Shown piece after piece: positions 7,955 to 24,762 of a DNA stretch of 64,000 nt. Each line of letters opens with the position of its first letter. Positions within the stretch are counted from its first letter, which is position 1. The stretch is from a virus: positions 1 to 64,000 of the IMG/VR virus record IMGVR_UViG_3300044611_002466; one strand, 5' to 3'. Under the pieces are notes generated by a model. It was not told the DNA's origin. It did no database searches and saw only the letters and a list, made by a program, of their open reading frames with translations. The position numbers and the translations under genes were made by a program.

Positions 7955-7962
7955 CTTATGAC
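7955..7962 (-). promoter_or_regulatory. Candidate phage promoter motif GTCATAAG (copy 1)
   Basis: About 24 nt upstream of the first gene of the replication block; same motif heads five other minus-strand units. Confidence 0.55.
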
Positions 7963-9837: not shown

Positions 9838-10431
9838 ATGTCAGAGCACCTCATGTACCTCGCCTGCTTTCGCGAGCTGGAGAAGTCCGCCGGGTTCGGT
9901 ACGCGCGCAGCCACATGGGCAGCTGGACACGCCGCGCAGGTGGGTGGTGCTGTGAAGAGCTTCGCCCACGACGTAGGCAGCTCCGCCCTGGGCACGGTGC
10001 GTCCCAGTGCCTGGAAGGCCGGGATTCAGGCCGGAAGGGCGGAGATGAAGAACGGTCCGCTGGCCGCGGGAATGACGGCGCTTGCGGTGCCTCTCACCGC
10101 GGCCGACGTCGTGCACACGATGCGGACGAAGGTGGACCCGGCGACGGGGAGGCAGCTCGGGCTTGGCGAGCGCGCTGCTGTGGCGGCCGGGCATGTGGGG
10201 TCCACGGTCGCTGGGATGCGCTACATGAACATGGCTGGGGGCGGCTTTGTCCGCGGCATCGGTGTTCAGGTAGGCGGCGGCATGATCACCGACGCGGTCA
10301 CCAGCCGGGCCGGGAGGGCAGTCGATAGCCTGGCTGCTCGAAGGTCCCCCAGTGCGGTGGGTGCTCTCGGCGGCTACGCTCACCCCGCGACCGCCGCTGG
10401 CGGGGCGCCAGTCGCCCGCGGAGTCTCATGA
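9838..10431 (+). CDS. Gly/Ala-rich hydrophobic virion protein with KxA site
   Basis: LEKSAG near the N-terminus followed by hydrophobic Gly-rich segments; ATGA overlap with portal. Confidence 0.65.
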   Translation: MSEHLMYLACFRELEKSAGFGTRAATWAAGHAAQVGGAVKSFAHDVGSSALGTVRPSAWKAGIQAGRAEMKNGPLAAGMTALAVPLTAADVVHTMRTKVDPATGRQLGLGERAAVAAGHVGSTVAGMRYMNMAGGGFVRGIGVQVGGGMITDAVTSRAGRAVDSLAARRSPSAVGALGGYAHPATAAGGAPVARGVS

Positions 10432-12521
10432 ACACCTCCACCGATAGTCCTCGTTCCCCTGGACGTACTACCGCCTCTTGGACGAGTCGCGGCTACGGTG
10501 TTCGGTATCCGTCGCCCTTTTTCGACGTCGCACAGCAGTTCCTCCCGGAGAACGTGCACCAGCTGCATCTCTGGTGCCGGTTCTACTTCCTGACGAACCC
10601 GGTCATCAACGTCGCCTGCCAGAAGATGGCGGAGTACCCCGTCACGCCGCTCGTGTGGGAGACCGACGACAGCGAGCTCAAGGCGCTCTACACCAACCTG
10701 GAGGCCCACCTCCGTCTCCGGCAGTTTCAGGTCGAGATCGGGCTCGACTACAACGTCTACGGGAACGCCTTCGCCAGCGTGTTCTTCCAGCTGGAGAAGT
10801 ACCTGGTGTGCAAGAACTGCAGGGAGCGGTACCGTGCGTCGAAGAACCGCAGCAGGTACACGTGGAAGAACGGGCGATTCTTCCTAACCTGTGGCCTATG
10901 CAAGACGCAGGACTACGCCGACCAAGCCGACACCTACCCGCGTAACGTACGCGGGGCCCGTCTCGTACGGTGGAACCCCGAGAACATCGAGATCAAGCAC
11001 AACGAGGTCACCGGCACCAGCCGCTACTACTACCGCCTCCCGCGCAGCGTCACGAACGACGTCCGCCTCGGGGACCCCGAGACGATCGAGACCCTCCCGC
11101 ACCAGTTCCTCGAGGCGGCGCGGACCGGCCGCGTGCTGCTGTTCCACCCCGACAACTTCTTTCACCTCAAGCGCCCGACCATCGCCCAGAAGGATCAAGG
11201 GTGGGGCTCCCCGCTGATCTTCCCGCTCCTAAAAGATGCCTTCTACCTGCAAGTCATGAAGAAGGCGCAGGAGAGCCTGCTGCTTGAGCATGTGGTGCCG
11301 CTGCGGATCGTCTTCCCTGGACCGACCACCGGAGGCAACGACGGGCCTTTCGGTGCGTACAACCTGTCCAACTGGAAGCAGAAGATCGACACCGAGCTGG
11401 CCATGTGGAAGCGGGACCACAACTACATCCCGATCATGCCGATGAACATCGGGTTCCAGCAGATCGGCGGGCAGGCCAAGGCACTCATCCTGCACCAGGA
11501 GTTCCGCATCCACGCAGAGCAGATGCTCGCGGGCGCCGGCATCCCGGTGGAGTTCGTGTACGGCGGACTCCAGTGGAGCTCCTCGAACACCTCACTGCGT
11601 GCGCTGGAGAACACGTTCCTCGGCTACAACATCGAGCGCTTCAACCTCACGCGCTTCGTTGTCGACAAGGTCGCGGCGCACATGGGCTGGAGGACCTGCC
11701 CGTTCCGCTTCGAGAAGTTCCGCATGGCGGACGACCTCCAGCGGGCCATGTTCTACCTCCAGCTCAACCAGGCAGAGAAGGTCTCGGACCAGCGCCTGCT
11801 CGAGGAGGTTGGGGAGGACTGGGAGACCGAGAGCGAGCGCATCACGGGGGAGCGCGCGAAGAAGATCGATGCGCAGCGGAGGACGCAGCTGGCGACGGCC
11901 GAGATCCAAGGAGCCGCCCTGCTCCGAACCTCCCGCTACCAAGCCAAGGCGAACGAGCTGACGATGCTCGCTCAGAACAACGCGCAGATGCAGATCCAGA
12001 GCGACCAAGCCGCCGCCGGCATGGTCGCCGCACCAGGAGCACAGCCTGCAGGTGCGGCGCCCGGCGCAGCTGCTCCGCCCGCAGCAGAGGCGCCCGCCCA
12101 GGGCGACGCGGCCGCTGCGGGGCAAGACGGTGGTGCTCCCCCGCCCGTGGACCCCAACGCGGCGCTCCCAGAGGGCGGCCCTTCCGTGTACGCGGAGAAC
12201 GCGGGAGCTCCAAACGCATCCGCCGCCCCCACGGCGATGGGTGGGCTGGAGTCGCCCCTGCGCGTGGGTCAGGGAGGGATGGACCTTCGGTACATCGCAC
12301 AGCGCGCGGTGGCCTACCTACGCACGGTGGAGAGCCAGAACGGGAAGCAGGCCATGCTTCAGGAGCTCGGCAAGCTCCAGCTGGAGAACCCACCCGTCTA
12401 CCAGCTCGCCGTGCAGCTGCTGAACAACACCGGCGCGGTGGCAGACCCCCTAAACGCGACCACATCGCCCATCACTCCGAGATCCGCCTCGCAGCGGGAT
12501 GCCAGCCGTACCATAGGATGA
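10428..12521 (+). CDS. Portal protein
   Basis: YPSPFF...WCRFYFLTNPVIN.ACQKMAEYPVT N-terminus, WGSPLIFPLLKDAFYLQVMKKAQE helix, coiled-coil and low-complexity tail; 697 aa; head-gene context. Confidence 0.7.
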   Translation: MNTSTDSPRSPGRTTASWTSRGYGVRYPSPFFDVAQQFLPENVHQLHLWCRFYFLTNPVINVACQKMAEYPVTPLVWETDDSELKALYTNLEAHLRLRQFQVEIGLDYNVYGNAFASVFFQLEKYLVCKNCRERYRASKNRSRYTWKNGRFFLTCGLCKTQDYADQADTYPRNVRGARLVRWNPENIEIKHNEVTGTSRYYYRLPRSVTNDVRLGDPETIETLPHQFLEAARTGRVLLFHPDNFFHLKRPTIAQKDQGWGSPLIFPLLKDAFYLQVMKKAQESLLLEHVVPLRIVFPGPTTGGNDGPFGAYNLSNWKQKIDTELAMWKRDHNYIPIMPMNIGFQQIGGQAKALILHQEFRIHAEQMLAGAGIPVEFVYGGLQWSSSNTSLRALENTFLGYNIERFNLTRFVVDKVAAHMGWRTCPFRFEKFRMADDLQRAMFYLQLNQAEKVSDQRLLEEVGEDWETESERITGERAKKIDAQRRTQLATAEIQGAALLRTSRYQAKANELTMLAQNNAQMQIQSDQAAAGMVAAPGAQPAGAAPGAAAPPAAEAPAQGDAAAAGQDGGAPPPVDPNAALPEGGPSVYAENAGAPNASAAPTAMGGLESPLRVGQGGMDLRYIAQRAVAYLRTVESQNGKQAMLQELGKLQLENPPVYQLAVQLLNNTGAVADPLNATTSPITPRSASQRDASRTIG

Positions 12522-13481: not shown

Positions 13482-13880
13482 TTACGAGGGGACCGCCAGC
13501 ATCAGGACGGAGCTCGGCGTACCGCACGCGTCGCACTCCCCGTCTTTCCAGTAGGGCTGCACCTTGAACCCCCGAGTGCACGTCGAGCACACCCACACGT
13601 AGTCGGGCGCCCGGTCTTCCAGCTCGCTCAGAAGCAGCTGGCACTTTCCGCAGTCGACGTCTCCGCACATCCCCCCGCGGTTGTACCGTCCGGCTGGCAG
13701 CAGTACTCGCACGCTCCTGGTGCTGCGCTCGAGCAGCACACAGAACGCGAAGAGTCCACCCTCTCCTGGGAGCGTGGGGTCAACGCGCGGCGCCGACCGC
13801 TCCAGGGGCTCGTGCAGCCCTGTCTGGCCCCGAAGTCTTCGTAGAGGTGAGCCCTCGCGGGCTCTACGCGCGGGCACCAT
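13482..13880 (-). CDS. Zn-finger protein (start uncertain; 13670 is an alternative)
   Basis: CGDVDCGKC...CSTC...CDAC in the C-terminal half with strong GC3 bias. Confidence 0.55.
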   Translation of the reverse strand: MVPARRAREGSPLRRLRGQTGLHEPLERSAPRVDPTLPGEGGLFAFCVLLERSTRSVRVLLPAGRYNRGGMCGDVDCGKCQLLLSELEDRAPDYVWVCSTCTRGFKVQPYWKDGECDACGTPSSVLMLAVPS

Positions 13881-13983
13881 CACCCCTCGTCCAGTGGTGG
13901 TGCATCGCCGCCCCGCATTCGACCACGAACCGTGCCGCGCCCGCCACAAAGGCGAACAGCAGCATCCACATCGTCGGACTCAT
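13864..13983 (-). CDS. Possible small membrane peptide, 39 aa (MSPTMWMLLFAFVAGAARFVVECGAAMHHHWTRGDGARA)
   Basis: Hand translation; GGGGA RBS; better GC3 bias than the overlapping frame. Confidence 0.4.
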   Translation of the reverse strand: MSPTMWMLLFAFVAGAARFVVECGAAMHHHWTRGDGARA

Positions 13984-14119
13984 CTACATCCCCGTGTTGG
14001 GTCCCGGTGGGACCAGAAACAGACTGCTCGACCAGCTGCGCGAACTGACACAGCTCGGTCCCCTGACTCGGCCTCGAACGGGGCGCCCTACGACGTCCCG
14101 TGGTAGGTTTGGAGTCCAT
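13880..14119 (-). CDS. Hypothetical protein (3' reading frame ambiguous)
   Basis: GGAGGTG RBS before ATG 14119 and GGCATAAG motif upstream. Confidence 0.45.
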   Translation of the reverse strand: MDSKPTTGRRRAPRSRPSQGTELCQFAQLVEQSVSGPTGTQHGDVDESDDVDAAVRLCGGRGTVRGRMRGGDAPPLDEG

Positions 14120-14135
14120 GTTCACCTCCATCCCC

Positions 14136-14143
14136 CTTATGCC
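14136..14143 (-). promoter_or_regulatory. Candidate phage promoter motif GGCATAAG (copy 3)
   Basis: GGCATAAGGGGGATGGAGGTGAACATG, near-identical architecture to copy 2; divergent from the RNAP gene. Confidence 0.5.
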
Positions 14144-14160
14144 GGATGTGGAGCTCTTCT

Positions 14161-17100
14161 ATGCCGAATCTGAACCCGGAAGCCGCCTTCGAGAGCTTGA
14201 AGGGTCAGGTGGCCGCGACCATCAAGGCGCAGTTCCCCTTCGAGGGGGCGGTGCGTCGGCTTGAGCTTGTCGACGTCGTCTTTGAGGAAAAGTCCGGCAA
14301 CGCAGGAGACCCGCACCACATCGACAACCTCGATGAGCAGCTCAAGGCCAGAACGACCGGGATGACGTGGGGCGTGCCCGTGCGCGGACGCCTGCGGCTC
14401 GTGGACAAGGCCTCCGGACACCTCATCGAGGAGGCGTCGGTCACCTTGGCGAAGCTCCCCAAGATCACCCGCAGGTACTCCTACCTCATCGACGGGCAGG
14501 AGCGGCAGCACGACAGCGTGTTCCGGTCCAAGTCTCGTGCCTACCACCGCATCGCCTCGAACGGCGACGTCCAGGCCCGCTGGAACTTGGCACGCGGGCA
14601 CGGGTTTGACCTGACGTATGACCCCGTGAAGGGGCGCATGATCATGACGATCGGAGACTCCAACATCCCGCTCTACTCCGTGCTGCACATCCTCAACGTA
14701 GGGGATGCCTCGATGGAGCGGGCTTGGGGTCCCGAGGTGTTCCGCGACAACCAGAAGGCCGCGAAGCTCGGGGACGTGGACAAGATCTACACCGCGCTGC
14801 GGCTGCGCATGGCAGACCGCTCTTCCGGCACTCCGGCCCAGCGGGCGGAGAAGATCCGGGAGTACTTCGCGACGGAGACGGAGGTGCTGCCGGACGCGAT
14901 GAAGGCGGCCTTCGGAAGGGAGTACTCCTCGGTCAACGGAGAGAACCTGCTCCTCTCGTCCACCCGCCTCCTGGACATCCAGAAAGGGCGCTCGAAGGAA
15001 GACCCTCCGGCACATGAGCTTCCCGACGACCGACAGGCGCTGTCCGCGAAGTACCTCGCGACCACCGAGGACTTCGTGATCGAGGCCCTCAGGAGCCACG
15101 AAGCGAGCCTTCGGAAGCAGGTACAGGACCGCATCGACAAGCCGGAGTACAGCATCAGCGACATCATGTCGCCGAACTCCTACGGGCGCGTCGTTCTCGC
15201 CCCGTTTCAGCACGCACAGCGCCCGGAGCAGACCAACCCGCTGCAGTTCCTTTCGGGGTACATGCGCACGACCATCCGCGGCAAGGAGTTCGGCGGCGTC
15301 GGCGGCGAGAAGATCAACCTCGACGTCGAGAAGGAGCTGAACCCGACGCACTTGGGGTTCATCGATCCCATCCAGACGCCGGAGGGGGAGGACACGGGCA
15401 TCGCCCTCAACCTCCCCCTCGGGATCTCTGTCACACGCGCGACCGCGCGACCAGGCTCGAAGAGCAGGGGCTCTCCCGGGCAGGAGATCCGGACGAAGGT
15501 CTACGACGTCAAGGCGCGTCAGACGGTGCTGGCGACCCCGGCGGAGCTCGAGCACGCCGTCGTCGCGTACCCGGACCAAGTACGCTGGACCGGCGGCCAT
15601 CCCGCGCCGATCGCGAACGAGGTCGTCTGCTACGACGAGCAGCGCAAGACCTCGAAGCGTCCGTGGGAGAAGGTGCGGTACGTGCTTCCATCTGCGAAGG
15701 CGCTCCTCTCCTTCAGCGCGAATCTGATCCCCTTCTTGCAGAACAACAACGGCAATCGAGCCATGATGGCGGCCAAGCAACAGGAGCAGGCCCTCGCTCT
15801 GGTGCGGCGCGAGGCCCCCCTCGTCCAGGTCAAGACGGACGGGGTCAACACGTTCGAGCAGGTCGTCGGGTCCTTCGTCACGCACACAGCCCCCGCGGCC
15901 GGCGTCGTGAAGCGAGTCGAGCCGGGCGCGGTTCACCTGCAGACCGAGGAAGGCCTCGTCCGCATCCCGATGTACAACCACTTTCCCCTCAACGGAGGGA
16001 AGAACTCCCTCCACTCCATTCCGGTGGTGAAGGCGGGTCAGGCGGTCCAGAAGGGCGAGCTCCTGGCGGACTCGAACTACACCAAGGATGGCGCCCTCGC
16101 GCTCGGCTCGAACCTGCGCGTCGCGTACGTGCCGTGGAAGGGTCTGACCTTCGAGGACGGCATCGTCGTGTCCGAGAGCGCGGCGAAGCGCATGTCCTCG
16201 GACCACATGCACGCGCTGGAGGTCACGGTCTACGCCAGCATGATCGGCGCCACTGAGGGATCGTTGTCCCGCTGGCGTGACTACGCGACCCCGCAGCGGA
16301 GCACCCCGGAGCACATCAGCAATCTGGACGCACGCGGGATCGTGCGGGAGGGCGCCGTTGTGCACAGCGGCGACGTCCTCGTCGCGATTCTTAGCCCCAG
16401 GCAGTCGAGCGAGTCAGACCAAGCAGCCGGCCTCATCCACAAGACACTGGCGAGGTCGTACCGGGACTCGTCCCTCGTCTGGGACCACGACTACTCCGGG
16501 AAGGTGGTCCGGGTGCTGGTCTCCGAGGCCATGAACCGGAAGCACATCACGGTGCACGTCACCACGGAGCAGCCCCTGGTCGTAGGGGACAAGCTGTCAG
16601 GGCGTCACGGCAACAAGGGGATCATCAGCCGCATCGTGCAGGACCACGAGATGCCACACACGGCGGACGGCGTCCCCGCCGACCTGCTGCTGAACCCAGC
16701 TGGCGTGCCGAGCCGTATGAACGTCGGCCAGGTCCTCGAGACTGCGGCGTCCAAGATCGCAGAGAAGACGGGCAAGCCGTACATCGTGGAGAACTTCGTC
16801 CCCGGGGTCGACTACTCGGCGAAGGTGACGGCGGAAATGCAGAAGCACGGGCTGTCGGACACGGAGGAGATGTTCGACCCCGTGACCAAGCGGTCCATCG
16901 GCCAGATCATGGTCGGGAAGCAGTACATGCTCAAGCTCCACCACCAGGTGGAGAAGAAGGCAACCGCGCGCTCGATGGAGAGCGGGTACACGCACACCGG
17001 CGAGGCGCCGAAGGGGTCCGGCATCCCCGGCGGCGGCCAGAAGATGGACATGTTGACGACGTACGCGATGCTCGCGCACGGAGCCAACCACAACCTCCGG

Positions 17101-20100
17101 GAGGCGTACACCTTCAAGAGCGACGGCGACCAGAACGCCGCCTGGGCCGCTGTGATCACGGGCAACCCGCTGCCCCCGCCGCAGCCCACTCGCGGGATGA
17201 GCCATTTCCAGAACTACCTTCGGGCGCTCGGCGTGAATGTCGAGAAGCGGAAGGACGACTACCAGCTCTCGCCCCTGACGGACATGCACCTGCTGGGCGA
17301 CGCGAAGCGAGGCCTGCGCGGGATCTCGAACGGCGAGATCAAGCTGCCCGAGAAGCTCAGCGTGGCGCGCGGGGCGCGCACCGTCGAGGAGCACGGCGGC
17401 TTGTTCGACCCTCGCGTCACCGGCGGCCTCCAGGGCAAGTTCTGGAGCCACGTGGAGTTGGCGGAGCGCATGCCGAGCCCACTCTTCGAGCCCGCGATCC
17501 AGACGTTGACCGGCCTGACCAAGAAGCAGTTCGACGCCATGGTGGGCGAGAAGGGCCTCGTAGACGGCAAGTCCGGGTTCCACACCATCATCGAACGGCT
17601 GGGGGCCATCAACGTCGACGAGGAGTTGAAGAAGGCCCAAGCCGAGGTCGGGAAGTCCGGCCGCGCGACGCTGAACCGCGCGATGAAGAAGGTGCGGTAC
17701 CTCGAAGCCCTCAAGGCGAACGGGCTGACGCCGCTCGAGGCGTACACCAACAAGTACCTACCGGTGCTACCCCCCTCTGTTCGACGGGTGTCGGTGGGCC
17801 TCGACGGGACCCAGGTCGTGGACGACCGGAATCCGCTGTACCTGGGCGTGGGACACGCCAACGGAATCCTGAAGGAGGCGAAGCCGTCGACGCCCCACGA
17901 GGACCTCCAGAAGGCGCGGGCGTCGCTCTACAGCAGCATCCGCTCGCTGCGGATGACCGGCATGACGACCAGCCCGGGGTCCGGAAAGCCGCGGCACATG
18001 CAGGGTCTGATGGAGCTCCTGTCAGGTAAGACCGAGGATCACGGAGCCCCCAAGGAGAGCTTCTTCCAAGAGGGGGTCCTTGCCCGGCGCCAGGACCTGT
18101 CGGGTCGGTCGACGATCGTACCCGAGCCGGCGCTCGGGCTTGACCAAGTCGGCGTGCCCCGTCAGATCGCTATGGAGATGTACAAGCCCTTCGTGGTGCG
18201 CGAGCTCGTGCGCGGCGGCAAGACCCCCATCGAGGCGTTGAAGTGGGCGAAGGAGAAGAAGGATCACCCGCAGGTGATGGACGCGCTCGAGCGGGCCGTG
18301 GCGGAGCGGCCGGTCTTCCTGAAGCGGGACCCGTCTCTGCACAAGTTCTCCATCATGGCCTTCCACCCGAAGATCGTAGAAGGCAGTGCTATCAAGATCC
18401 ATCCGCTGGTAACCGGGGGATTCAACGCCGACTTTGACGGGGACTGCTACTACGGTCAGGTCCTTGTTGACACCGAAGAGGGGGTGGATTACCACGAGGG
18501 CATGCCTCACTACCTCCGCGTGCCCGGCCAGAAGGTCATCCACATCCGCGACTTCCCCCGCATCGAGAGCACGCGCGTGGAGAAGGCATCCGGCGTCGTC
18601 GAGTACGACGTCCCCGCCGGCGTACGCGTTCCCGCGTGCTTCAGGGACGGCAACAGGCCCTGCATCGAGTCGTTCGAGGTGACGAAGTTCTCCGAGCACC
18701 CGGACTGCGAAGAGTGGGTGGTGAAGACGCGTGCCGGGCGCGAACTGCTCGTCTCCGAGGACCACAGCCTCGCGCTGCTGGACCCGGAGACTCTGGAGGT
18801 GTCCAAGGCTCCCGCGCGCGAGGCCGTAGGACAGTGCCTCCCGACTATGTTCCGCAGTGATGACGGAGAGGCGGCGGTTTACGACCTGCGCGAGTACCGA
18901 GGACCCAAGAGCAATCCGCTCCTGGACGTCGTCGAGGTCGGCAGGGAGGTCGCCTGGATGCTGGGCGTACTCGTCGGAGATGGCTGGGTGACACAGAAGA
19001 CGCCCGCCGTGGCGACCGTGAGCCTCTCGTTCGGAGACGATGGCGCGGACGTCGCGGTGGCATGGGAGGCGGCGGCCAGCAGGATCGCAGACGGCGCAGT
19101 CGGCTACACAGAGCTCCCGCACGAGTTCGAGGGCAAGAACTACACGTCGCACCGGTTGACGCTGAGCAACACTGGCTTCGCCAAGTGGATCGCGCCGATG
19201 ATCGGGCACAGCGCTCGTGGAAAGCACCTGCCCGAGGGCTACCTGCACTGGAATCGAGAGTCCCGGCGCGGGCTGTTCTGCGGGCTGCTGGACACGGACG
19301 GCTCTGTGAACTGGGCCGCCAGTGGGCGATTCTCCTGCTCCTTCACGACGACGTCGCAGCGCCTCGCGGAGGAGGTGCGTCTACTCGGCCTCACGCTGGG
19401 ACTCGCGGCTACGTTCACGGAGTTCGAGAACCGAGACCAACCTGCGTACATCCTGACGTTCTCGGTCAGCCAGGTGCAAGAGGCACGGTGGCTGAAGCTC
19501 GTGTCGGCGCGCAAGCAGGCTGCGCTCAGCAAGCTGCACAACGGTACTCGTCGCGCGCGCGGGCACACGGACTTCGTCCCGCTGCCCCCGAGAGCACGCG
19601 AAGAGCTGCTCGACCTGCTGCGGCAGGTCGGTGCGACCCGACGCGCGCCGAACAAGAACAAGCCTGCCTTCTCGCTGTACGTGGTCCTGAAGCGCGGGGA
19701 ACCCACGCTGTCCCGCGAGGCGTACGAGAGCCTGTGGTCGGTCCTCGATCCGACGCTCGACTACTCGGAGTACCTCAAGCGGTGGGTTTCCGTGTGCAAC
19801 GCCCCTGTGAGCTGGGACCTCGTCGAGTCCGCTGAGTTCACCGGCAAGCGCCGCACGATGTACGACATCACGGTGCCCGGTGCATGGACGTTCGCTACGG
19901 CAGACGGCGCCATCGTCTGGGACACGATGGCCCTCTACGTCCCGGTGTCCGCCGAGGCGGTGGAGGAGGCGCACAAGATGCTCCCCTCGAAGAACCTGTT
20001 CTCGCCCACCCACTTCGGTCTTCTTCCCGTCCCCGGCCAGGACTCTCTCCTGGGCATCTTCCAGGCGACGAAGTGGGGCACCGAGGTGAAGGTGCCAGAG

Positions 20101-23067
20101 GGCACCACTGCCGAGCGCGCGATGCAGATGATGCACGATGGGAAGCTCAAGCCGACCGACGTGATCCTCATCGACGGTAAGAAGACGACGGCGGGGCGGC
20201 TGTCGCTTGCCGCGCTCCTACCCGCCGCGATGCAGGGGAATGAGAAGCTCCTGCACGACTCGGCCTTCCGCCTCAACAAGGATGGGGTCGAGAAGATGCT
20301 CTCCACGGTGGCGCGGGACCACGACAAGGGCTTCGCCACCACAGTCGACGGGTGGAAGGATCTCGGGAACCACCTGTCCTACCTGAACGGCAGCTCCTTC
20401 TCCATCAACGACTTCCACGACGGCGTCGCCATGCGCGACCGCATCCTCGCGCCCTACGCTGCGCAGGAGAAGGCGCTCCACAACACCGCCATGTCGCCGA
20501 GGAGGCGGGACCAGAAGATCGTCGAGCTCTATCAGGGTGCGCAGGCGGAGCTGAAGCGCGTGGGCAAGGCCAAGTACGACGCGGGCGGCAACCGTGTCTG
20601 GGAATGGGCGGAGTCCGGCGCACGCGGCAACTGGAACCAGTTCGCCCAGCTGACGCTGGCGCCCGTCCTCGTCGAAGACTTCGCGCGGCGCACCGTTCCC
20701 ATCCCGATCACCAAGTCCTTCGGAGAGGGCCTCTCGGTGTCCGAGTACTGGGCGTCGATGCACGGCGCCCGCAAGGGCACCCTCGACCGCGCCCAGGGGA
20801 CGCGCGAGCCTGGCGCAGTCCAGAAGGACATCGTCAACACGACCATGGGGATCCAGGTCACCGCAGAAGACTGCGGGGCCACCGAAGGCAAGAAGATGGC
20901 GGTCGGACACAACGACATCGTCGGCAGGTTCCTCGCCCATGCAGTGAAGCTCGGGACCGTCGACGTCCACGCCGGCGAGCTCATCACGCCGGCCCTGGTC
21001 TCCCAAGCCCGGAATGCTGGCGTCGCGGAACTCGTGGTGCGCTCGCCGCTCTTCTGCAGAATGGGCAAGGGGGTGTGTGCGAAGTGCTACGGGCACAACG
21101 AACGCGGCGGCCTCCACGCAGTCGGCACGAACCTGGGCGTCATCGCAGGGCAGGCGCTCAGCGAGCCCATTACCCAGCTCGCGATGAAGTGCAGCGAAGG
21201 GGTGATCACGGACGGCGCTGGCGTGACCTGGGCCTTCGAGGACTACTTCGAGGCACACGGGCTCGAGGTGCCGGCGGCCGGAGAGGTGCGCACGAAGTCC
21301 ATAGTCGCGATGCTGCGCGACGGTCCCGCGCCCGCTGTGGTTGCGACGCGTCTGCAGTCGCATCTGCCGGACGACGAGATGGTCTTCATCAAGACACGCT
21401 CCGGGCACGTGATGGCGGTCCAGAAGAACCACCCGCTCTGGGTCTACGACGCCAACGGCAATGCCTTCGTGAAGGCGGCTGGCGCCCTCGAGCCCCGTGT
21501 CGACCGCTTGCGCGTGGACCGGGTCGCGATCGAGCGGCCGACGTGCGCCATGGCCCCGCTCGACCCGTACGCGATTGGGTTCTTCCTCGCCGAGGGGAGC
21601 ACTCGCTACGGCAACGGCACCCCGCGCTACGACGGTGTTGCGGTCGCGTCGGTCTTCTCCCAGCACGAGTCGTTCCAGAAGCATGAGCTCGTCACGCGCC
21701 TCCGCGCCATCAACGGGATCGGCACGGTCTCGTCTCACGAGAAGTGCGTCGAGGTCTACGACCCGGCGTTCGCAGCGTTAATGGCCAGCGTGGTCCGCGG
21801 GCGCAGCAGCTACACGAAGCGCCTGCAGCCGGGCTTCAATCTCTGGTACGAAGAGGAGCTGGTCCGCCTGCTCGCTGGCTGGATCGACGGCGACGGGACC
21901 GTGTTTGAGTCGAGCGGGGTGACCGTCGCCAAGATCTACACGTCCAGCTTCGTCGCCCTGCAGCAGCTCGAGATCATCTGTGCCAGGCTCAGGATCCGCT
22001 GCAGTGCCGGGTACGTCAGCCGCCCCGACGAGACCGTGAAGGTGAAGAGCCGACACGCCAACTTCTTCGCGGAGCTGCGGTTCAACGAGGACTCTCGTTG
22101 GGACGTCGGCAGCTGGTCCCTGCGCATGCGCGCGAAGGGCGAGGTGAAGTTCGCGAAGCACCGCTTCATCGACCACGACCTGGATCCGGTGCGGAAGGTC
22201 CAGGTCATGCCGAAGTGGATCACCCCGGTGTGGGACGTGAAGACGTCCTCGCAGGGATTCACGTGCGGCATGCTGCGCAACCACAACACCTTTCACACGG
22301 GAGGGGTCTCGAGTGCGGGGCAGTCCAGCGCCGTGGACTCGTTCAAGCGTGTGAAGCAGCTCTTCATGGTCCCCGGCAAGCTGCCAGACAAGGCGACCAT
22401 CGCCACGGTCGGCGGTACGATCGGGAAGATCGTCACCGACGCCCGCGGTGGCCTCACCGTCGACATCGAGGGCAAGGCCCATCGCGTCATCACAGGGCAC
22501 CTCCTCGACGGCATCAAGACCGGCGCAGTGGTGCACCGCGGTGACCCGATCTCCACGGGCCCCCTCGACCCGCACGAGCTCCTGGAGCACACCAAGAGCA
22601 TCGGGCGTACGCGGAACTACATCACGGACGAGGCCACCGCGGCGTACCAGGGCACCGTCCGCCAGCGGAACGTGGAGATGGTGGTGCGCGGGATGACCAA
22701 CCTCACGGAGGTCCACAACGCTCCTCCCGGCAGCCCGTGGCACCAGGGCGACCTGGCCCCGCTCTCCGCGGTGGACGAGCACAACGCCAACGCGACAGCG
22801 GAAGGACACGAGGTCATCTCGCACACGCCTACGCTGCGCGCGATGACGCTCGTTCCCCTGTCCGGGACCGAGGACTGGATGGCGCGGCTGAACTACCAGC
22901 GCCTCAAGGACACCTACACGGAAGGTGCTGCCCAGGGCTGGAAGTCCAACATCCACGACCATCCGATCCCCGGCCTTGCCCACGGCGCCGAGTTCGGGCT
23001 ACGTCCCCCCACGGCCCGCACACCGCCGCCAGCCACCGGGCGCACGACTGCACCAGCGCGAAGGTAG
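14161..23067 (+). CDS. rpoBC: Single-chain DNA-directed RNA polymerase beta-beta' fusion with two inteins
   Basis: beta motifs QTNPL, PIQTPEG, LIPFL, FEDGIVVSE, GDKLSGRHGNKG, NPAGVPSRMNVGQ, KLHH, GGQK; beta' motifs LPVLPP, RQDLSGRSTI, RDPSLH, NADFDGD, CRMGKGVCAKC, EPITQLAMK/TFH. GGAG RBS favours ATG 14161. Confidence 0.95.
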   Translation: MPNLNPEAAFESLKGQVAATIKAQFPFEGAVRRLELVDVVFEEKSGNAGDPHHIDNLDEQLKARTTGMTWGVPVRGRLRLVDKASGHLIEEASVTLAKLPKITRRYSYLIDGQERQHDSVFRSKSRAYHRIASNGDVQARWNLARGHGFDLTYDPVKGRMIMTIGDSNIPLYSVLHILNVGDASMERAWGPEVFRDNQKAAKLGDVDKIYTALRLRMADRSSGTPAQRAEKIREYFATETEVLPDAMKAAFGREYSSVNGENLLLSSTRLLDIQKGRSKEDPPAHELPDDRQALSAKYLATTEDFVIEALRSHEASLRKQVQDRIDKPEYSISDIMSPNSYGRVVLAPFQHAQRPEQTNPLQFLSGYMRTTIRGKEFGGVGGEKINLDVEKELNPTHLGFIDPIQTPEGEDTGIALNLPLGISVTRATARPGSKSRGSPGQEIRTKVYDVKARQTVLATPAELEHAVVAYPDQVRWTGGHPAPIANEVVCYDEQRKTSKRPWEKVRYVLPSAKALLSFSANLIPFLQNNNGNRAMMAAKQQEQALALVRREAPLVQVKTDGVNTFEQVVGSFVTHTAPAAGVVKRVEPGAVHLQTEEGLVRIPMYNHFPLNGGKNSLHSIPVVKAGQAVQKGELLADSNYTKDGALALGSNLRVAYVPWKGLTFEDGIVVSESAAKRMSSDHMHALEVTVYASMIGATEGSLSRWRDYATPQRSTPEHISNLDARGIVREGAVVHSGDVLVAILSPRQSSESDQAAGLIHKTLARSYRDSSLVWDHDYSGKVVRVLVSEAMNRKHITVHVTTEQPLVVGDKLSGRHGNKGIISRIVQDHEMPHTADGVPADLLLNPAGVPSRMNVGQVLETAASKIAEKTGKPYIVENFVPGVDYSAKVTAEMQKHGLSDTEEMFDPVTKRSIGQIMVGKQYMLKLHHQVEKKATARSMESGYTHTGEAPKGSGIPGGGQKMDMLTTYAMLAHGANHNLREAYTFKSDGDQNAAWAAVITGNPLPPPQPTRGMSHFQNYLRALGVNVEKRKDDYQLSPLTDMHLLGDAKRGLRGISNGEIKLPEKLSVARGARTVEEHGGLFDPRVTGGLQGKFWSHVELAERMPSPLFEPAIQTLTGLTKKQFDAMVGEKGLVDGKSGFHTIIERLGAINVDEELKKAQAEVGKSGRATLNRAMKKVRYLEALKANGLTPLEAYTNKYLPVLPPSVRRVSVGLDGTQVVDDRNPLYLGVGHANGILKEAKPSTPHEDLQKARASLYSSIRSLRMTGMTTSPGSGKPRHMQGLMELLSGKTEDHGAPKESFFQEGVLARRQDLSGRSTIVPEPALGLDQVGVPRQIAMEMYKPFVVRELVRGGKTPIEALKWAKEKKDHPQVMDALERAVAERPVFLKRDPSLHKFSIMAFHPKIVEGSAIKIHPLVTGGFNADFDGDCYYGQVLVDTEEGVDYHEGMPHYLRVPGQKVIHIRDFPRIESTRVEKASGVVEYDVPAGVRVPACFRDGNRPCIESFEVTKFSEHPDCEEWVVKTRAGRELLVSEDHSLALLDPETLEVSKAPAREAVGQCLPTMFRSDDGEAAVYDLREYRGPKSNPLLDVVEVGREVAWMLGVLVGDGWVTQKTPAVATVSLSFGDDGADVAVAWEAAASRIADGAVGYTELPHEFEGKNYTSHRLTLSNTGFAKWIAPMIGHSARGKHLPEGYLHWNRESRRGLFCGLLDTDGSVNWAASGRFSCSFTTTSQRLAEEVRLLGLTLGLAATFTEFENRDQPAYILTFSVSQVQEARWLKLVSARKQAALSKLHNGTRRARGHTDFVPLPPRAREELLDLLRQVGATRRAPNKNKPAFSLYVVLKRGEPTLSREAYESLWSVLDPTLDYSEYLKRWVSVCNAPVSWDLVESAEFTGKRRTMYDITVPGAWTFATADGAIVWDTMALYVPVSAEAVEEAHKMLPSKNLFSPTHFGLLPVPGQDSLLGIFQATKWGTEVKVPEGTTAERAMQMMHDGKLKPTDVILIDGKKTTAGRLSLAALLPAAMQGNEKLLHDSAFRLNKDGVEKMLSTVARDHDKGFATTVDGWKDLGNHLSYLNGSSFSINDFHDGVAMRDRILAPYAAQEKALHNTAMSPRRRDQKIVELYQGAQAELKRVGKAKYDAGGNRVWEWAESGARGNWNQFAQLTLAPVLVEDFARRTVPIPITKSFGEGLSVSEYWASMHGARKGTLDRAQGTREPGAVQKDIVNTTMGIQVTAEDCGATEGKKMAVGHNDIVGRFLAHAVKLGTVDVHAGELITPALVSQARNAGVAELVVRSPLFCRMGKGVCAKCYGHNERGGLHAVGTNLGVIAGQALSEPITQLAMKCSEGVITDGAGVTWAFEDYFEAHGLEVPAAGEVRTKSIVAMLRDGPAPAVVATRLQSHLPDDEMVFIKTRSGHVMAVQKNHPLWVYDANGNAFVKAAGALEPRVDRLRVDRVAIERPTCAMAPLDPYAIGFFLAEGSTRYGNGTPRYDGVAVASVFSQHESFQKHELVTRLRAINGIGTVSSHEKCVEVYDPAFAALMASVVRGRSSYTKRLQPGFNLWYEEELVRLLAGWIDGDGTVFESSGVTVAKIYTSSFVALQQLEIICARLRIRCSAGYVSRPDETVKVKSRHANFFAELRFNEDSRWDVGSWSLRMRAKGEVKFAKHRFIDHDLDPVRKVQVMPKWITPVWDVKTSSQGFTCGMLRNHNTFHTGGVSSAGQSSAVDSFKRVKQLFMVPGKLPDKATIATVGGTIGKIVTDARGGLTVDIEGKAHRVITGHLLDGIKTGAVVHRGDPISTGPLDPHELLEHTKSIGRTRNYITDEATAAYQGTVRQRNVEMVVRGMTNLTEVHNAPPGSPWHQGDLAPLSAVDEHNANATAEGHEVISHTPTLRAMTLVPLSGTEDWMARLNYQRLKDTYTEGAAQGWKSNIHDHPIPGLAHGAEFGLRPPTARTPPPATGRTTAPARR
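18445..19923 (+). mobile_element. Intein 1 with LAGLIDADG homing endonuclease (493 aa), C1...WD / T+1
   Basis: Interrupts NADFDGD|TMALYVP; begins CYYG; LGVLVGDG and CGLLDTDG motifs; block F MYDITVPG..TF. Confidence 0.9.
21190..22287 (+). mobile_element. Intein 2 with LAGLIDADG homing endonuclease (366 aa), C1...HN / T+1
   Basis: Interrupts TQLAMK|TFHTGG; begins CSEG; GFFLAEG and AGWIDGDG; ends VWDVKT...NHN. Confidence 0.92.
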
Positions 23068-23073
23068 GTAGGC

Positions 23074-24246
23074 ATGCCGACTACGAAGCAGGGGACGCAC
23101 AACCTCCCCAGCAAGGGCAAGACCACCGGCAGCAACGCCAAGACCCCTGCACTCATCCAGATGGGCAGGATCACCGAGGTCGACCCCCTCAGGTGGACCT
23201 GCGTCATCAAGACGGAGGGCAGCTCCGACAGCTCCAGGACCTTTAGGGACGTCCCGCTCGGCGGCCTGTACCTGCACCCGCTCGGCGAGGGCATCTACGC
23301 GATGCCTGAGGCGGGCGCGCTCGTGTGGGTGTGCAAGCCGAGTGAGGGGGACGCGGCGGCGTTCATCGTCAACTACCGTCCCTACCCGAGGCGGGACACC
23401 CTCACCTCGACGGAGGCCAACAAGCCCGCCGCCCCTGGCAACCGCCCTCGCATGAGCCCCGGGGACTACGCATTCCTCGGACGGGACCAGAACGGGCTCT
23501 TCGTCCGCCGCGGACAGCTGACGGAGGTCTTCGGGGGACCGCTCGCGCGGACGCTCTACCAGGGGCGCACCGGGACGATCCACTCCTTCGCGCAGGCCCT
23601 GAAGCTCGACGTGTTCGGCGGCTCTGTGCGATGGAACGTCGACCGTCCTGAGCTCGACCCCGACGGCCACCAGGGGACGCGGCTGGATCTGAAGGCGAAG
23701 GAGTTCGCCGACGACCGCTCCTACGCCCTACGTGTCAGGGCCGGAAAGCTCGACGCGAGCGCCCCCATCCAAGACCCAGTCCTTCAGCTGCAGGTCTTCA
23801 CGGATGGGGACGTGGCGGAGGAGAGCCTCGCCCAGGCGCTGTCTCTCACGGCGAACAAGGCCGGAGAGGTCGCGCTCTCCACGACGGGCAGCGTGCTGGT
23901 CGACGTTACAGCGGGCGGGGTGAGCGTGGCCTCCGTACGCGTCTCCAAGGACGGCGCGGTCGAGGTCACGGCAGCGAACGCGGTCACCGTGCGCGGCAGC
24001 GCGGTGACTCTTGCCGCCGGCAGCGCCCAGCTGAGTGTCACCGCGGCCGGTGTCTCCGCGGGGGCTTCCGCCGGCGACAAGCACAAGGTCTTGAAGGACC
24101 TGTCGTTCAGCACGGACACCGCAGCAGCCTGGGCGGAGGTGGCAGCGCTCTGCTCCGCGCTCGGCCTCCCGAGCACGAACATCGTCAAGCACATCGCCGC
24201 TCTGAACGCCGGAACGTACACAGCGTCGGCTCTGGAGACCGAGTAG
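23074..24246 (+). CDS. Putative baseplate central spike (gp5/gpV-like)
   Basis: N-terminal OB-like GRITEVDP...PEAGALVWV; C-terminal V/T/A beta-repeat segment. Confidence 0.6.
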   Translation: MPTTKQGTHNLPSKGKTTGSNAKTPALIQMGRITEVDPLRWTCVIKTEGSSDSSRTFRDVPLGGLYLHPLGEGIYAMPEAGALVWVCKPSEGDAAAFIVNYRPYPRRDTLTSTEANKPAAPGNRPRMSPGDYAFLGRDQNGLFVRRGQLTEVFGGPLARTLYQGRTGTIHSFAQALKLDVFGGSVRWNVDRPELDPDGHQGTRLDLKAKEFADDRSYALRVRAGKLDASAPIQDPVLQLQVFTDGDVAEESLAQALSLTANKAGEVALSTTGSVLVDVTAGGVSVASVRVSKDGAVEVTAANAVTVRGSAVTLAAGSAQLSVTAAGVSAGASAGDKHKVLKDLSFSTDTAAAWAEVAALCSALGLPSTNIVKHIAALNAGTYTASALETE

Positions 24247-24762
24247 ATGCCCGTACAGCCCCACCTCCCAGACATCCGGGCGCGCATCTCGCGGCGGCTC
24301 AACCCGGAACGGCTGGCACGGGACGGGCTCCCTGAGCTCCTTGCGCAGGCTCTCTACGACGAGCTCACGACGAACCCGGGGCCCCAGGGACCTGCCGGCC
24401 CTACGGGAGCCGCCGGTCCGCAGGGAGCGGCAGGTCCTCAAGGCACGACAGGCCTCCAGGGCCCCCAGGGATCTCCGGGGAGTGCCGACCCCGCGCTCGA
24501 GATGGAGCTTGCATTCAAGGCCAGCAACGCGAGCAACTACAGGACCGCCTCCTACGACGAGCAGGGACAGCTCGTGGCGCTGGACATCTGGACATCGGCA
24601 GAGCTGACAGTCCAGCTCTTCAGCCGCAGCTTGACCTACACGGATGGCCGGCTTGTGACGTCGACCCTTGTGCGCACCTCGGACGGGGCCACCTTGACGC
24701 GCTCCTTCGAGTACACGGAAGACGGGGTGTGGAGCGGGGCGACCACGGTGTATACACCATGA
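24247..24762 (+). CDS. Collagen-like repeat protein
   Basis: About 12 consecutive G-x-y triplets (GPQGPAGPTGAAGPQ...) then YD-like beta-hairpins. Confidence 0.75.
   Translation: MPVQPHLPDIRARISRRLNPERLARDGLPELLAQALYDELTTNPGPQGPAGPTGAAGPQGAAGPQGTTGLQGPQGSPGSADPALEMELAFKASNASNYRTASYDEQGQLVALDIWTSAELTVQLFSRSLTYTDGRLVTSTLVRTSDGATLTRSFEYTEDGVWSGATTVYTP

What the first reader, a model, noticed from the sequence alone, without database searches (positions are those of the whole stretch)
14161..23067. Compact single-chain beta-beta' RNA polymerase inside the virion gene block
All cellular beta and beta' catalytic motifs lie in one ORF. The junction (LRALGVNVEK-RKDD-YQLSPL, about 17250) has almost no linker. 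The mature size is about 2110 aa after removing inteins, far below the roughly 2750 aa of the two E. coli subunits. Natural fusions are known in Helicobacter and Wolbachia, while phiKZ-like RNAPs are split and crAss/P23-45 single chains are very divergent. This one stays bacterial-like. No alpha, omega or sigma gene is in the window. Its position between portal and spike suggests a virion-packaged enzyme (inference).
Basis: partly seen in the sequence, partly recalled or inferred. Interest (0 to 1): 0.75.

Follow-up and report, generated by a model that had tools for sequence, protein, structure and literature searches.

The report
Single-chain phage RNA polymerase with inteins
A 188-kb uncultured tailed phage encodes both large subunits of a bacterial-type RNA polymerase as one slimmed-down protein interrupted by two self-splicing inteins; hundreds of phages share this fused layout, they carry their own sigma factor and no alpha subunit, and the enzyme probably travels inside the virus particle, yet I found no paper that describes it.

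Summary
Window 14161-23067 (+) is one open frame. Its exteins (2109 aa) align end to end with bacterial beta and then beta'. Two LAGLIDADG inteins interrupt it, at nt 18445-19923 after NADFDGD and at nt 21190-22287 in the trigger loop.

The junction (about nt 17245-17262) has no linker. The beta' zinc ribbon is deleted. The fusion is not an assembly artefact: at least 120 database proteins and 76 of 79 IMG/VR loci have the same uninterrupted frame, with the portal gene upstream (70/79) and the central spike gene downstream (72/79).

Beta and beta' trees both place these phages on one long branch apart from 18 bacteria, including the fused Helicobacter enzyme.

The 188-kb genome has no alpha or omega gene and no second polymerase.

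In the one characterised relative, Salmonella phage Arash, the homologous polymerase chains and sigma are among the most abundant virion proteins. Virion delivery here is therefore an inference from homology.

This scan had already noted the same family in at least 20 other genomes. I rate it a new variant of a known kind; it is well populated in databases and absent from the papers I could search.

The parts
14161..23067 (+). Gene for the single-chain beta-beta' RNA polymerase precursor (2968 aa from the ATG at 14161; stop at 23065-23067)
   Evidence: ORF; translation; Pfam; PDB; start codon
14161..17253 (+). Beta-like module (about aa 6-1036). It contains the FEDG motif, GRHGNKG, a flap with tip helix, and an altered rifampicin pocket.
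   Evidence: PDB beta chains align to residues 71-1037; motif alignment with bacteria; NCBIfam rpoB 347 bits, below the cut-off of 801
17227..17277 (+). Fusion junction, ...LGVNVEK-RK-DDYQLSPL.... The last beta strand runs straight into the first beta' strand.
   Evidence: Conserved in all aligned family members. Bacteria have a stop/start here; Helicobacter has a linker of roughly 30-35 aa by my count of the alignment. The AlphaFold model predicts two strands (model residues 151-156 and 159-164) joined by a 2-residue turn, with pLDDT block means 75-95.
17254..18444 (+). Beta' N-terminal module. The zinc ribbon is deleted. Clamp helices, lid/rudder region and NADFDGD are present.
   Evidence: Foldseek matches to bacterial beta' chains at E 1e-23
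18445..19923 (+). Intein 1 (493 aa), inserted right after NADFDGD. It has Cys1, a LAGLIDADG endonuclease domain, an atypical C-terminal Trp-Asp, and Thr+1.
   Evidence: Absent from orthologue P0002. LAGLIDADG_3 scores 37.7 bits, above cut-off; Intein_splicing scores 22.9, below cut-off. The W-D ending is shared with P0045, and L089 has Y-D.
19924..21189 (+). Beta' middle extein. It contains the bridge helix, the second zinc site cysteines, and the first half of the trigger loop.
   Evidence: Alignment to 8i23_D and to Thermus beta'; motifs
21190..22287 (+). Intein 2 (366 aa), in the trigger loop between ...TQLAMK and TFHTGG. It has Cys1, a canonical His-Asn end, and Thr+1.
   Evidence: Absent from P0002. 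LAGLIDADG_3 scores 21.6 bits, just under the cut-off of 22.5. The same site is occupied in 16 relatives.
22288..23067 (+). Beta' C-terminal extein
   Evidence: Aligns to the end of bacterial beta'
10428..12521 (+). Portal protein gene, conserved upstream neighbour
   Evidence: 29% identical to Arash gp204 portal, E 6e-80. A homologue lies upstream on the same strand in 70 of 79 related loci.
23074..24246 (+). Central baseplate spike gene (gpV/gp5/VgrG-like OB domain plus beta-helix), starting 7 nt after the polymerase stop
   Evidence: A homologue lies directly downstream in 72 of 79 loci. 13 of 26 homologues hit Pfam Phage_base_V; there are weak gp5/VgrG PDB hits.
14136..14141 (-). One of six in-window copies of the promoter-like motif G(T)CATAAG (the others are at 7955, 13460, 41477, 43839, 44372). 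This copy points away from the polymerase gene, toward a small minus-strand ORF.
   Evidence: 29 of 30 genome copies are on the minus strand and most lie between called genes; where a start codon follows closely, a Shine-Dalgarno sequence lies about 3-9 nt downstream of the motif. The strand-biased motif is also found in relatives G001 and G003.

Best explanation
The gene encodes the catalytic core of the phage's only RNA polymerase as one polypeptide.

Step 1, splicing. After translation the two inteins must splice out. Intein 1 separates the Mg-binding NADFDGD loop from the next strand, and intein 2 splits the trigger loop. The product is a 2109-aa chain.

Step 2, folding. In that chain the last strand of beta runs, through a two-residue turn, into the first strand of beta'. 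I infer that this covalent link stands in for the alpha-dimer assembly platform, which the genome lacks, as it also lacks omega.

Step 3, promoter choice. The core keeps the two main sigma docking elements, the beta' clamp helices and the beta flap tip. It most likely works with the phage's own sigma-70-family protein, encoded outside the window.

Step 4, delivery. The polymerase and sigma genes lie in the plus-strand structural blocks. By homology with phage Arash, their products are probably packed into the virion and delivered with the DNA.

Step 5, targets. There they would start transcription of the minus-strand non-structural genes, many of which carry a G(T)CATAAG promoter-like element.

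Shown here: the fusion, the inteins, the deletions, the gene content, the synteny and the family size. Inferred: alpha-independence, sigma use, virion delivery and promoter assignment.
For: Fusion and catalytic motifs:
- One frame holds beta and beta' homology.
- GRHGNKG, FEDG, NADFDGD, the bridge helix and the trigger loop are intact after in-silico splicing.

The fusion is real and ancient:
- The top 120 hits of 1635-5203 aa are all fused.
- 408 IMG/VR stretches encode a relative, and 76 of 79 loci have one open frame of at least 2020 aa, across GC 45-69%.
- Beta and beta' trees each place all 23 phage rows on one side of a branch with support 100, apart from all 18 bacteria, and their internal groupings are largely similar. 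Fused Helicobacter groups with its own phylum.

No alpha or omega:
- PF01000, PF01193 and PF01192 find nothing at E <= 10 in a genome CheckV rates 100% complete, while 14 of 14 control genomes score.
- There is a precedent: the AR9 non-virion RNAP lacks alpha and omega with no compensating domain (PMC9209446).

Sigma:
- Pfam Sigma70_r3 scores above its cut-off.
- phmmer to Arash gp10 gives E 4e-17.
- A family profile hits solved SigA/SigB/RpoS/FliA chains down to E 7e-14, aligning with their C-terminal conserved part; by eye this covers regions 2-4.
- The gene is present in 16 of 20 related contigs, and in 6 of 7 that are at least 90% complete.
- The clamp helices and flap tip are retained.

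Virion:
- In sucrose-purified Arash virions, gp206 gave the most spectra of any protein (3516, 100% coverage). gp216 gave 1210 and sigma gp10 gave 467 (PMC10585845).
- The portal-RNAP-spike order is conserved.
- The exteins have no K-x-A-[SAG] site against 3.1 expected, whereas each intein has one. Across 98 relatives the mean is 1.8 against 3.1 expected.

Promoter motif.
Against: - Nothing has been tested on this phage. It is a metagenomic record with no known host.
- Arash mass spectrometry detected 116 of 272 proteins, including ribonucleotide reductases, so carry-over of abundant non-structural proteins is possible. The authors say so themselves.
- Arash and this phage share only about 31% identity in the polymerase, and Arash's beta' is split.
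- A single polymerase must also serve late genes, or the host enzyme must. I found no convincing plus-strand promoter motif.
- Host alpha could still bind; sequence alone cannot exclude it.
- Intein 1 ends in Trp-Asp instead of His-Asn, so its splicing competence is assumed. From memory, C-terminal Asp inteins that splice have been reported (Amitai et al. 2004); I could not check this.
- The K-x-A argument rests on another unproven hypothesis, and the rows compared are related to each other.
Confidence: 0.6

Rival explanations
1. The polymerase is not a virion protein. It is made after infection and transcribes middle and late genes, while host RNA polymerase (perhaps redirected) reads the early genes. 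Its place among the structural genes is only an expression-timing convenience.
For: - There is only one polymerase locus in the genome, so this enzyme probably has a role beyond the first minutes of infection.
- The Arash virion preparation also contained many enzymes, so abundance may reflect carry-over.
- CATAAG has four of six positions in common with TATAAT, so host sigma-70 cannot be ruled out for those sites.
Against: - In Arash the polymerase chain gave 2.6 times more spectra than the major capsid protein, with 100% coverage. That is hard to explain as contamination.
- If the plus-strand structural blocks are expressed late, as is usual for structural genes, both polymerase and sigma would be made too late to serve early genes unless carried over in the particle.
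- The exteins are depleted of the putative head-protease motif.
Confidence: 0.2
2. The fused chain still needs host subunits, alpha as assembly platform and/or a host sigma. It would then be a replacement for beta-beta' inside a hybrid host-phage enzyme.
For: - The chain is bacterial-like. Bacterial NCBIfam models score 347-550 bits, against 100-160 for archaeal ones.
- No phage alpha exists in the genome.
Against: - The clade spans GC 45-69%, and its cultured members infect Salmonella and Vibrio. On both trees it sits on a long branch away from all bacteria. That argues against co-adaptation to any one host's alpha.
- A dedicated phage sigma is conserved.
- The AR9 and phiKZ enzymes work without alpha.
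Confidence: 0.15
3. The long frame is an artefact or a dead gene: a mis-assembly joining two genes, or a polymerase inactivated by non-splicing insertions.
For: - Intein 1 has a non-canonical C-terminus.
- Intein_splicing and the second LAGLIDADG hit fall below Pfam cut-offs.
Against: - The same junction occurs in hundreds of independent assemblies.
- GC3 is 0.89 over the whole frame, as in neighbouring genes.
- Both insertions are exact relative to an orthologue 90% identical, they restore conserved motifs on removal, and they occupy sites used by inteins in many relatives.
- The W-D ending is conserved in a relative only 52% identical.
Confidence: 0.03

Closest known systems
RNA polymerase of Salmonella phage Arash (gp206 + gp216, with sigma gp10; OQ632216; PMC10585845) and of Vibrio phages D69/D148/D181
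   Same: - The same beta to beta' junction fusion.
- The portal gene lies just upstream.
- A gp10-type sigma is present.
- Genome size is about 180-190 kb, with a myovirus-type gene set.
- They are sister to the fully fused clade on the beta' tree.
   Different: - In Arash and D69, beta' is cut after the first third: a 1525-aa chain plus a 606-aa chain from a gene several kb away. Here the whole enzyme is one chain.
- Identity is only about 31%.
- Arash has a second sigma (gp196) with no homologue here.
- The Arash paper annotates the genes simply as beta and beta' and does not mention a fusion.
Naturally fused RpoBC of Helicobacter and Wolbachia (NCBIfam NF007172, NF011417)
   Same: Beta and beta' lie in one polypeptide, in the same order.
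   Different: - The fusion arose independently. Helicobacter groups with Campylobacterota, far from the phage clade.
- It keeps a linker of roughly 30-35 aa (my count of the alignment), the full beta' N-terminus and the zinc ribbon.
- It is about 2900 aa without inteins and works with alpha, omega and host sigma.
- The phage protein scores 550 bits against a cut-off of 5372.
mReC phages (Weinheimer and Aylward 2020, PMC7481178)
   Same: Uncultured tailed phages with bacterial-type beta and beta' that branch outside cellular clades.
   Different: - All phage rows I read in Supplementary Data 2 (parts 9-10) have beta and beta' as separate ORFs, and several contigs carry two sets; none is fused.
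- The paper mentions a fusion only for crAssphage.
- The terminase here hits Pfam GpA_ATPase rather than PF03237, and a candidate capsid protein has no Gp23 hit.
phiKZ/AR9 jumbo-phage multisubunit RNAPs
   Same: - Phage-encoded two-barrel polymerases with no alpha or omega.
- One set is virion-packaged.
- A sigma-like specificity subunit is used (PMC9209446, PMC7598289, PMC7824862).
   Different: - Those enzymes are split into 4-5 polypeptides, come in two paralogous sets, and are much more divergent.
- Their sigma-like subunit is unrecognisable by sequence.
- Here there is one chain, one set, and a sigma found by Pfam and PDB profiles.
Single-chain virion RNAPs of crAss-like phages (phi14:2 gp66), P23-45 tape-measure-fused RNAP, and YonO
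   Same: A single polypeptide carries both double-psi beta-barrels. The crAss and P23-45 enzymes are delivered from the virion.
   Different: Those proteins share essentially only the DxDxD motif and the barrel fold with cellular enzymes. This one aligns over about 2000 residues with bacterial beta and beta' at E 1e-80 to 1e-100.

Membership tests
Bacterial-type two-barrel RNAP catalytic core (beta + beta') | Beta barrel motifs (FEDG, GRHGNKG) and the beta' NADFDGD Mg site, bridge helix and trigger loop | tested here: met
   All are present and aligned with 18 bacterial sequences after removal of the inteins. Pfam Rpb2_6 gives E 1.5e-65 and Rpb1_2 gives 2.9e-25.
Bacterial-type two-barrel RNAP catalytic core (beta + beta') | Orthology to bacterial rpoB/rpoC (NCBIfam equivalog cut-offs) | tested here: not met
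   rpoB scores 347 bits against 801, rpoC 464 against 963, and fused beta/beta' 550 against 5372. A separate long branch appears on both trees.
Bacterial-type two-barrel RNAP catalytic core (beta + beta') | Beta' N-terminal zinc ribbon (CxC...CxxC) | tested here: not met
   Deleted in all 23 phage rows and present in all 18 bacterial rows.
Bacterial-type two-barrel RNAP catalytic core (beta + beta') | Alpha dimer and omega as partner subunits | tested here: not met
   No hit to PF01000, PF01193 or PF01192 at E <= 10 in the 188-kb genome, while all 14 control genomes score. Use of host alpha cannot be tested here.
Arash-like phage RNAP clade (junction-fused beta-beta') | Linker-less beta to beta' junction with a trimmed beta' N-terminus | tested here: met
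   The junction is aligned and conserved with Arash, D69 and 21 fused rows.
Arash-like phage RNAP clade (junction-fused beta-beta') | Portal gene upstream, and a gp10-type sigma in the genome | tested here: met
   Portal. Sigma.
Arash-like phage RNAP clade (junction-fused beta-beta') | Beta' split into two genes after the catalytic loop | tested here: not met
   Here, and in 76 of 79 IMG/VR loci, the frame continues to the end of beta'.
Arash-like phage RNAP clade (junction-fused beta-beta') | Presence of the polymerase in virions | not testable with these tools
   Known only for Arash (PMC10585845).
mReC (Weinheimer and Aylward) | Separate beta and beta' genes, often two sets; T4-type capsid (PF07068) and PF03237 terminase | tested here: not met
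   Supplementary Data 2, parts 9-10. Here there is one fused gene, the terminase hits PF05876, and there is no Gp23 hit.
Intein (HINT splicing domain with homing endonuclease) | Exact in-frame insertion, absent from orthologues, at a conserved site of the host protein | tested here: met
   Both insertions are absent from P0002. Their removal restores NADFDGD-TMALYVP and TQLAMK-TFHTGG.
Intein (HINT splicing domain with homing endonuclease) | Cys/Ser at position 1, His-Asn at the C-terminus, Cys/Ser/Thr at +1 | tested here: inconclusive
   Intein 2 has C...HN|T, which is canonical. Intein 1 has C...WD|T, which is atypical. The W-D/Y-D ending recurs in P0045 and L089.
Intein (HINT splicing domain with homing endonuclease) | Pfam splicing and LAGLIDADG domains above cut-off | tested here: inconclusive
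   Intein 1: LAGLIDADG_3 at 37.7 bits is above cut-off, and Intein_splicing at 22.9 is below 35.8. Intein 2: LAGLIDADG_3 at 21.6 is below 22.5.

The most novel reading that the evidence does not exclude
This clade has a self-sufficient, two-protein bacterial-type transcription machine. It consists of a single-chain beta-beta' core that folds without alpha or omega because the subunit interface is covalently closed, plus one sigma-70-family factor. Both are packed in the capsid and ejected to start infection. It would be the smallest known bacterial-lineage multisubunit-type RNAP holoenzyme, and an independent route to a virion-delivered polymerase.
Probability: 0.45. Interest if true: 0.8.

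Novelty: new variant of a known kind. Interest (0 to 1): 0.65.

Why it matters
If the spliced single chain plus its sigma is active on its own, it would be a very simple bacterial-type RNA polymerase: two genes, with no alpha or omega.

- That would make directly testable the question of what the alpha platform and omega contribute to assembly.
- It would give structural biology and synthetic biology a compact, probably rifampicin-insensitive, sigma-programmable enzyme.
- It would add a third way for phages to carry a polymerase into the cell, beside N4/crAss single chains and the phiKZ multi-chain sets.

The clade is large: hundreds of contigs, GC 45-69%, from many environments. Its beta-beta' gene is a long, alignable marker for a phage lineage that the published mReC survey did not list. 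I suspect this is because that survey paired separate beta and beta' proteins, but that is my inference.

The inteins are also useful. They sit in the catalytic loop and the trigger loop, and six insertion sites are used across the family. This is a natural set of conditional-activity switches in an RNA polymerase.

Tried and rejected
- Complex prediction (beta' clamp fragment aa 1045-1433 with the sigma-like protein): requested ten times (among them). The machine did not complete, so there is no result of any kind.
- PHROGs gave nothing for the portal, the spike or the other neighbours. Their identities came from Arash homology and family-wide Pfam scans instead.
- Arash's second sigma (gp196) has no homologue in this genome by tblastn or phmmer.
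- The weak Sigma70_r4 hits did not lead to a second sigma. The one in the window (44385-45107, minus strand) is a MerR/excisionase-type HTH protein. The one at G000:118761 was not followed up.
- Foldseek on the junction-fragment model found bacterial beta' chains at E 1e-23 but with TM of only about 0.38. The isolated multi-domain fragment does not superpose globally, so I use the model only for the local hairpin.
- The scan of bacterial and archaeal genomes returned ordinary rpoB-rpoC operons plus one 204-kb contig binned in a Bacteroidales MAG. It gave no prophages and no host clue.
- I looked for a plus-strand (late) promoter motif by k-mer enrichment and by eye. Only weak GGTAC(A/C)-like strings appeared, and I make no claim from them.
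- Literature searches for a description of the fused form found none. Subscription journals are not covered.
- I considered filing the phage under mReC and rejected that.
Full report
**1. What is there**

The ORF listing gives one 2973-codon frame at 14146..23067 (+). The family alignment shows every relative starting at the Met encoded at 14161, with the sequence MPNL. A GGAG lies 7 nt upstream of that ATG.

Pfam finds beta domains (Rpb2_3, Rpb2_6), beta' domains (Rpb1_2, Rpb1_5), a LAGLIDADG domain and a weak intein splicing domain in this one protein. A sequence search of the PDB aligns residues 71-1037 with bacterial beta and residues 1122 onward with bacterial beta', at E 1e-76 to 1e-86.

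The window is the first 64 kb of a 188,230-bp IMG/VR virus record that CheckV rates 100% complete. The neighbours are phage genes:
- DnaB-like and SF2 helicases, large terminase, and a tail sheath domain;
- a portal homologous to Arash gp204;
- a central baseplate spike.

**2. Inteins**

An intein-less orthologue, P0002, is 2103 aa long, 90% identical, and sits on a 182.8-kb contig. It fixes two exact insertions.

Intein 1 (aa 1434-1926, nt 18445-19923):
- It follows NADFDGD and is followed by TMALYVP.
- It starts with Cys and carries a LAGLIDADG_3 domain at 37.7 bits.
- It ends in Trp-Asp rather than His-Asn.

Intein 2 (aa 2349-2714, nt 21190-22287):
- It lies between TQLAMK and TFHTGG in the trigger loop.
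- It is canonical: Cys1, His-Asn at the end, Thr at +1.

Removing both gives a 2109-aa product.

Among the 121 closest database proteins, 21 carry inteins, at six sites. In P0002 numbering these are positions 1850 (16 cases), 408 (8), 1427 (7), 812, 850 and 986. The W-D ending of intein 1 recurs in a relative only 52% identical (P0045), and L089 has Y-D. It therefore looks like a maintained variant, not decay.

From memory, C-terminal Asp inteins that splice have been reported (Amitai et al. 2004). I could not check that paper. The intein review I read gives only the canonical His-Asn.

**3. The junction and what is missing**

I aligned 23 phage rows with 18 bacterial rpoB-rpoC pairs. The phage chains end the beta homology at ...LGVNVEK(RK) and continue at once with DDYQLSPLTD...ISNGEIKLPEK. 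That second stretch matches bacterial beta' ...IKIxLASPExI..WSYGEVKKPETINY.
- There is no linker, and about 10-15 beta' N-terminal residues are gone.
- Fused Helicobacter keeps a linker of roughly 30-35 aa (my count of the alignment).
- The beta' zinc ribbon (about 32 aa, CxC...CxxC) is deleted in every phage row.

The rest of beta' aligns from residue 194 to 1152 of a 1188-aa beta' chain (8i23_D). The alignment covers the clamp helices, the second zinc site, the bridge helix and the trigger loop. There is no SI3-type insert. The beta flap tip helix is recognisable. The rifampicin-pocket residues are largely replaced, so I predict rifampicin insensitivity; this is an inference.

An AlphaFold model of aa 880-1433 was built from 56 sequences, with mean pLDDT 76.6. 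It predicts two strands (model residues 151-156 and 159-164) on either side of the junction, joined by a two-residue turn. The 10-residue block means for residues 141-200 are 91, 85, 94, 89, 95 and 75.

The compactness is thus about 8% relative to minimal bacterial enzymes. The much larger difference from E. coli reflects E. coli's lineage-specific inserts.

**4. Family and origin**

- The near-length search returned 1903 hits at E <= 1e-10. The best 120 are all fused proteins of 1823-2907 aa, most between 2030 and 2160 aa, on contigs up to 199 kb.
- A scan of IMG/VR found 408 stretches encoding a relative. In 79 loci, 76 have an uninterrupted frame of at least 2020 aa. The other three are cut by a contig end or carry a likely frameshift. 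GC ranges from 45 to 69%.
- The portal is upstream on the same strand in 70 of 79 loci. The spike is immediately downstream in 72 of 79.
- The shorter-length search found many chains of 1370-1630 aa that also span the junction, the Arash type (beta + beta'N). I saw no close relative with an unfused junction. The nearest free beta subunits are CPR and Mycoplasma proteins at E about 1e-47.
- In trees of beta (915 columns) and beta' (930 columns), all phage rows fall on one side of a branch with SH-aLRT 100, apart from all bacteria. The two trees recover largely the same internal groups. Arash plus D69 are sister to the fully fused clade on the beta' tree. Helicobacter stays with Campylobacterota.
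- The junction fusion is therefore old, arose once in this lineage, and is independent of the bacterial fusions.
- The trees are unrooted, were built with a quick search, and have limited bacterial sampling. I make no claim about depth relative to LUCA.
- NCBIfam bacterial models score 3-4 times higher than archaeal ones, but far below equivalog cut-offs.

**5. Partners**

No alpha, omega or Sigma70_r2 hit exists in the genome, and there is only one polymerase locus.

A note from this scan pointed to a sigma-like gene outside the window. I checked it myself.
- G000:152493-153368 hits Pfam Sigma70_r3 above its cut-off.
- It matches Arash gp10 at E 4e-17.
- By eye, its 17-member family alignment shows region 2, 3 and 4 patterns.
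- The family profile hits solved SigA, SigB, RpoS and FliA chains down to E 7e-14.
- It is present in 16 of 20 related contigs, and in 6 of 7 that are at least 90% complete.

**6. Promoter-like motif**

CATAAG is the most enriched hexamer upstream of genes.
- 29 of its 30 genome copies are on the minus strand, and most lie between called genes.
- Most are preceded by G (26/28) and T (16/28).
- Where a start codon follows closely, a GGAGG-type Shine-Dalgarno sequence lies about 3-9 nt downstream.

The minus strand carries the non-structural genes. The polymerase, the sigma and the structural genes are on the plus strand.

GTCATAAG shows the same strand bias in relatives:
- G001: 0 forward, 12 reverse.
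- G003: 11 forward, 1 reverse. The polymerase gene is on the reverse strand there, so the motif again lies on the opposite strand.
- Controls (the pattern read backwards) gave 0-1 per strand in these two genomes.

**7. Virion delivery**

Direct evidence exists only for Arash. In sucrose-gradient virions:
- gp206 gave 3516 spectra, 128 unique peptides and 100% coverage, the highest of all proteins;
- gp216 gave 1210 spectra;
- sigma gp10 gave 467 spectra;
- the major capsid protein gave 1333 spectra (PMC10585845).

The authors allow for carry-over of abundant proteins.

Indirect support here:
- The portal-RNAP-spike order is conserved.
- The polymerase and sigma genes lie in the structural-strand blocks.
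- There is a weak compositional signal. The exteins contain no K-x-A-[SAG] site (3.1 expected, P about 0.05), while each intein has one. Other notes of this scan propose this motif as the head-protease site. Across 98 relatives the mean is 1.8, against 3.1 expected and 3.1-5.8 for control motifs of the same composition.

**8. Literature**

- Weinheimer and Aylward's mReC contigs all have separate beta and beta' ORFs in the supplementary rows I read, with several contigs carrying two sets. Their text mentions a fusion only for crAssphage.
- The Arash paper calls gp206 'subunit beta'.
- The jumbo-phage reviews and other searches gave no description of this fused form.
- This scan's own index holds 22 notes on the same family in at least 20 other genomes, with the same conclusion.

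**9. Verdict**

- Mechanism: a single-chain core, intein-gated, free of alpha and omega, sigma-dependent and probably virion-delivered. My overall confidence is about 0.6.

Noticed in passing
window 7955, 13460, 14136, 41477, 43839, 44372 (minus strand); whole genome G000: The promoter-like motif G(T)CATAAG occurs 30 times in the genome, 29 of them on the minus strand. Most copies lie between called genes; where a start codon follows closely, a Shine-Dalgarno sequence lies about 3-9 nt downstream. An A is conserved 19 nt upstream in 22 of 28 copies. The motif is strand-biased in relatives G001 and G003 as well.
   Followed up: partly
window 14161-23067 (exteins versus inteins): The 2109-aa spliced polymerase has no K-x-A-[SAG] tetrapeptide (3.1 expected), while each intein has one. 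98 intein-less relatives average 1.8 against 3.1 expected. This would fit avoidance of a head-protease site, if K-x-A is such a site.
   Followed up: partly
window 19918-19923 (end of intein 1): Intein 1 ends in Trp-Asp instead of His-Asn. The same W-D (or Y-D) ending occurs in inteins at the same site in distant relatives (P0045, L089). Other relatives at that site end in Asn, and some begin with Gln rather than Cys or Ser.
   Followed up: partly
family-wide (P0002 positions 408, 812, 850, 986, 1427, 1850): Six different intein insertion points are used in this polymerase family. 21 of the 121 closest proteins carry one or two inteins, and the trigger-loop site is the most used.
   Followed up: partly
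window 13482-13949 (minus strand) and 13883-14119 (minus strand): Small genes of unknown function run divergently from the polymerase gene, directly upstream of it. The 155-aa one is conserved at the same place in 22 of 79 related loci. One CATAAG element (14136) points toward them.
   Followed up: partly
G000:65830-67176 (just beyond the window): This is a homologue of Arash gp217 'DNA helicase' (30% identity, E 1e-48). In Arash that gene lies next to the beta'C gene, and its product is among the most abundant virion proteins (1148 spectra). It may be a polymerase-associated helicase.
   Followed up: no
window 44385-45107 (minus strand): A 239-aa protein with an N-terminal MerR/excisionase-type helix-turn-helix. 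It accounts for a weak Sigma70_r4 hit and is not a sigma factor.
   Followed up: yes
window 24247-24762 (plus strand): A 171-aa protein with a short segment matching many PHROG tail-fibre families (E to 1.6e-11), located just after the spike gene.
   Followed up: no
L089 (DAOQAF010000001.1, 204,271 bp, labelled Bacteroidales MAG): A contig binned into a bacterial MAG carries a fused polymerase of this family with two inteins (2873-aa frame). It is most likely a phage genome, not bacterial DNA.
   Followed up: no
G005 and G017 (records behind L034 and L084): Two related records of 192 and 198 kb have direct terminal repeats. Complete genomes of this clade are therefore about 190-200 kb, just under the usual 'jumbo' threshold.
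   Followed up: no
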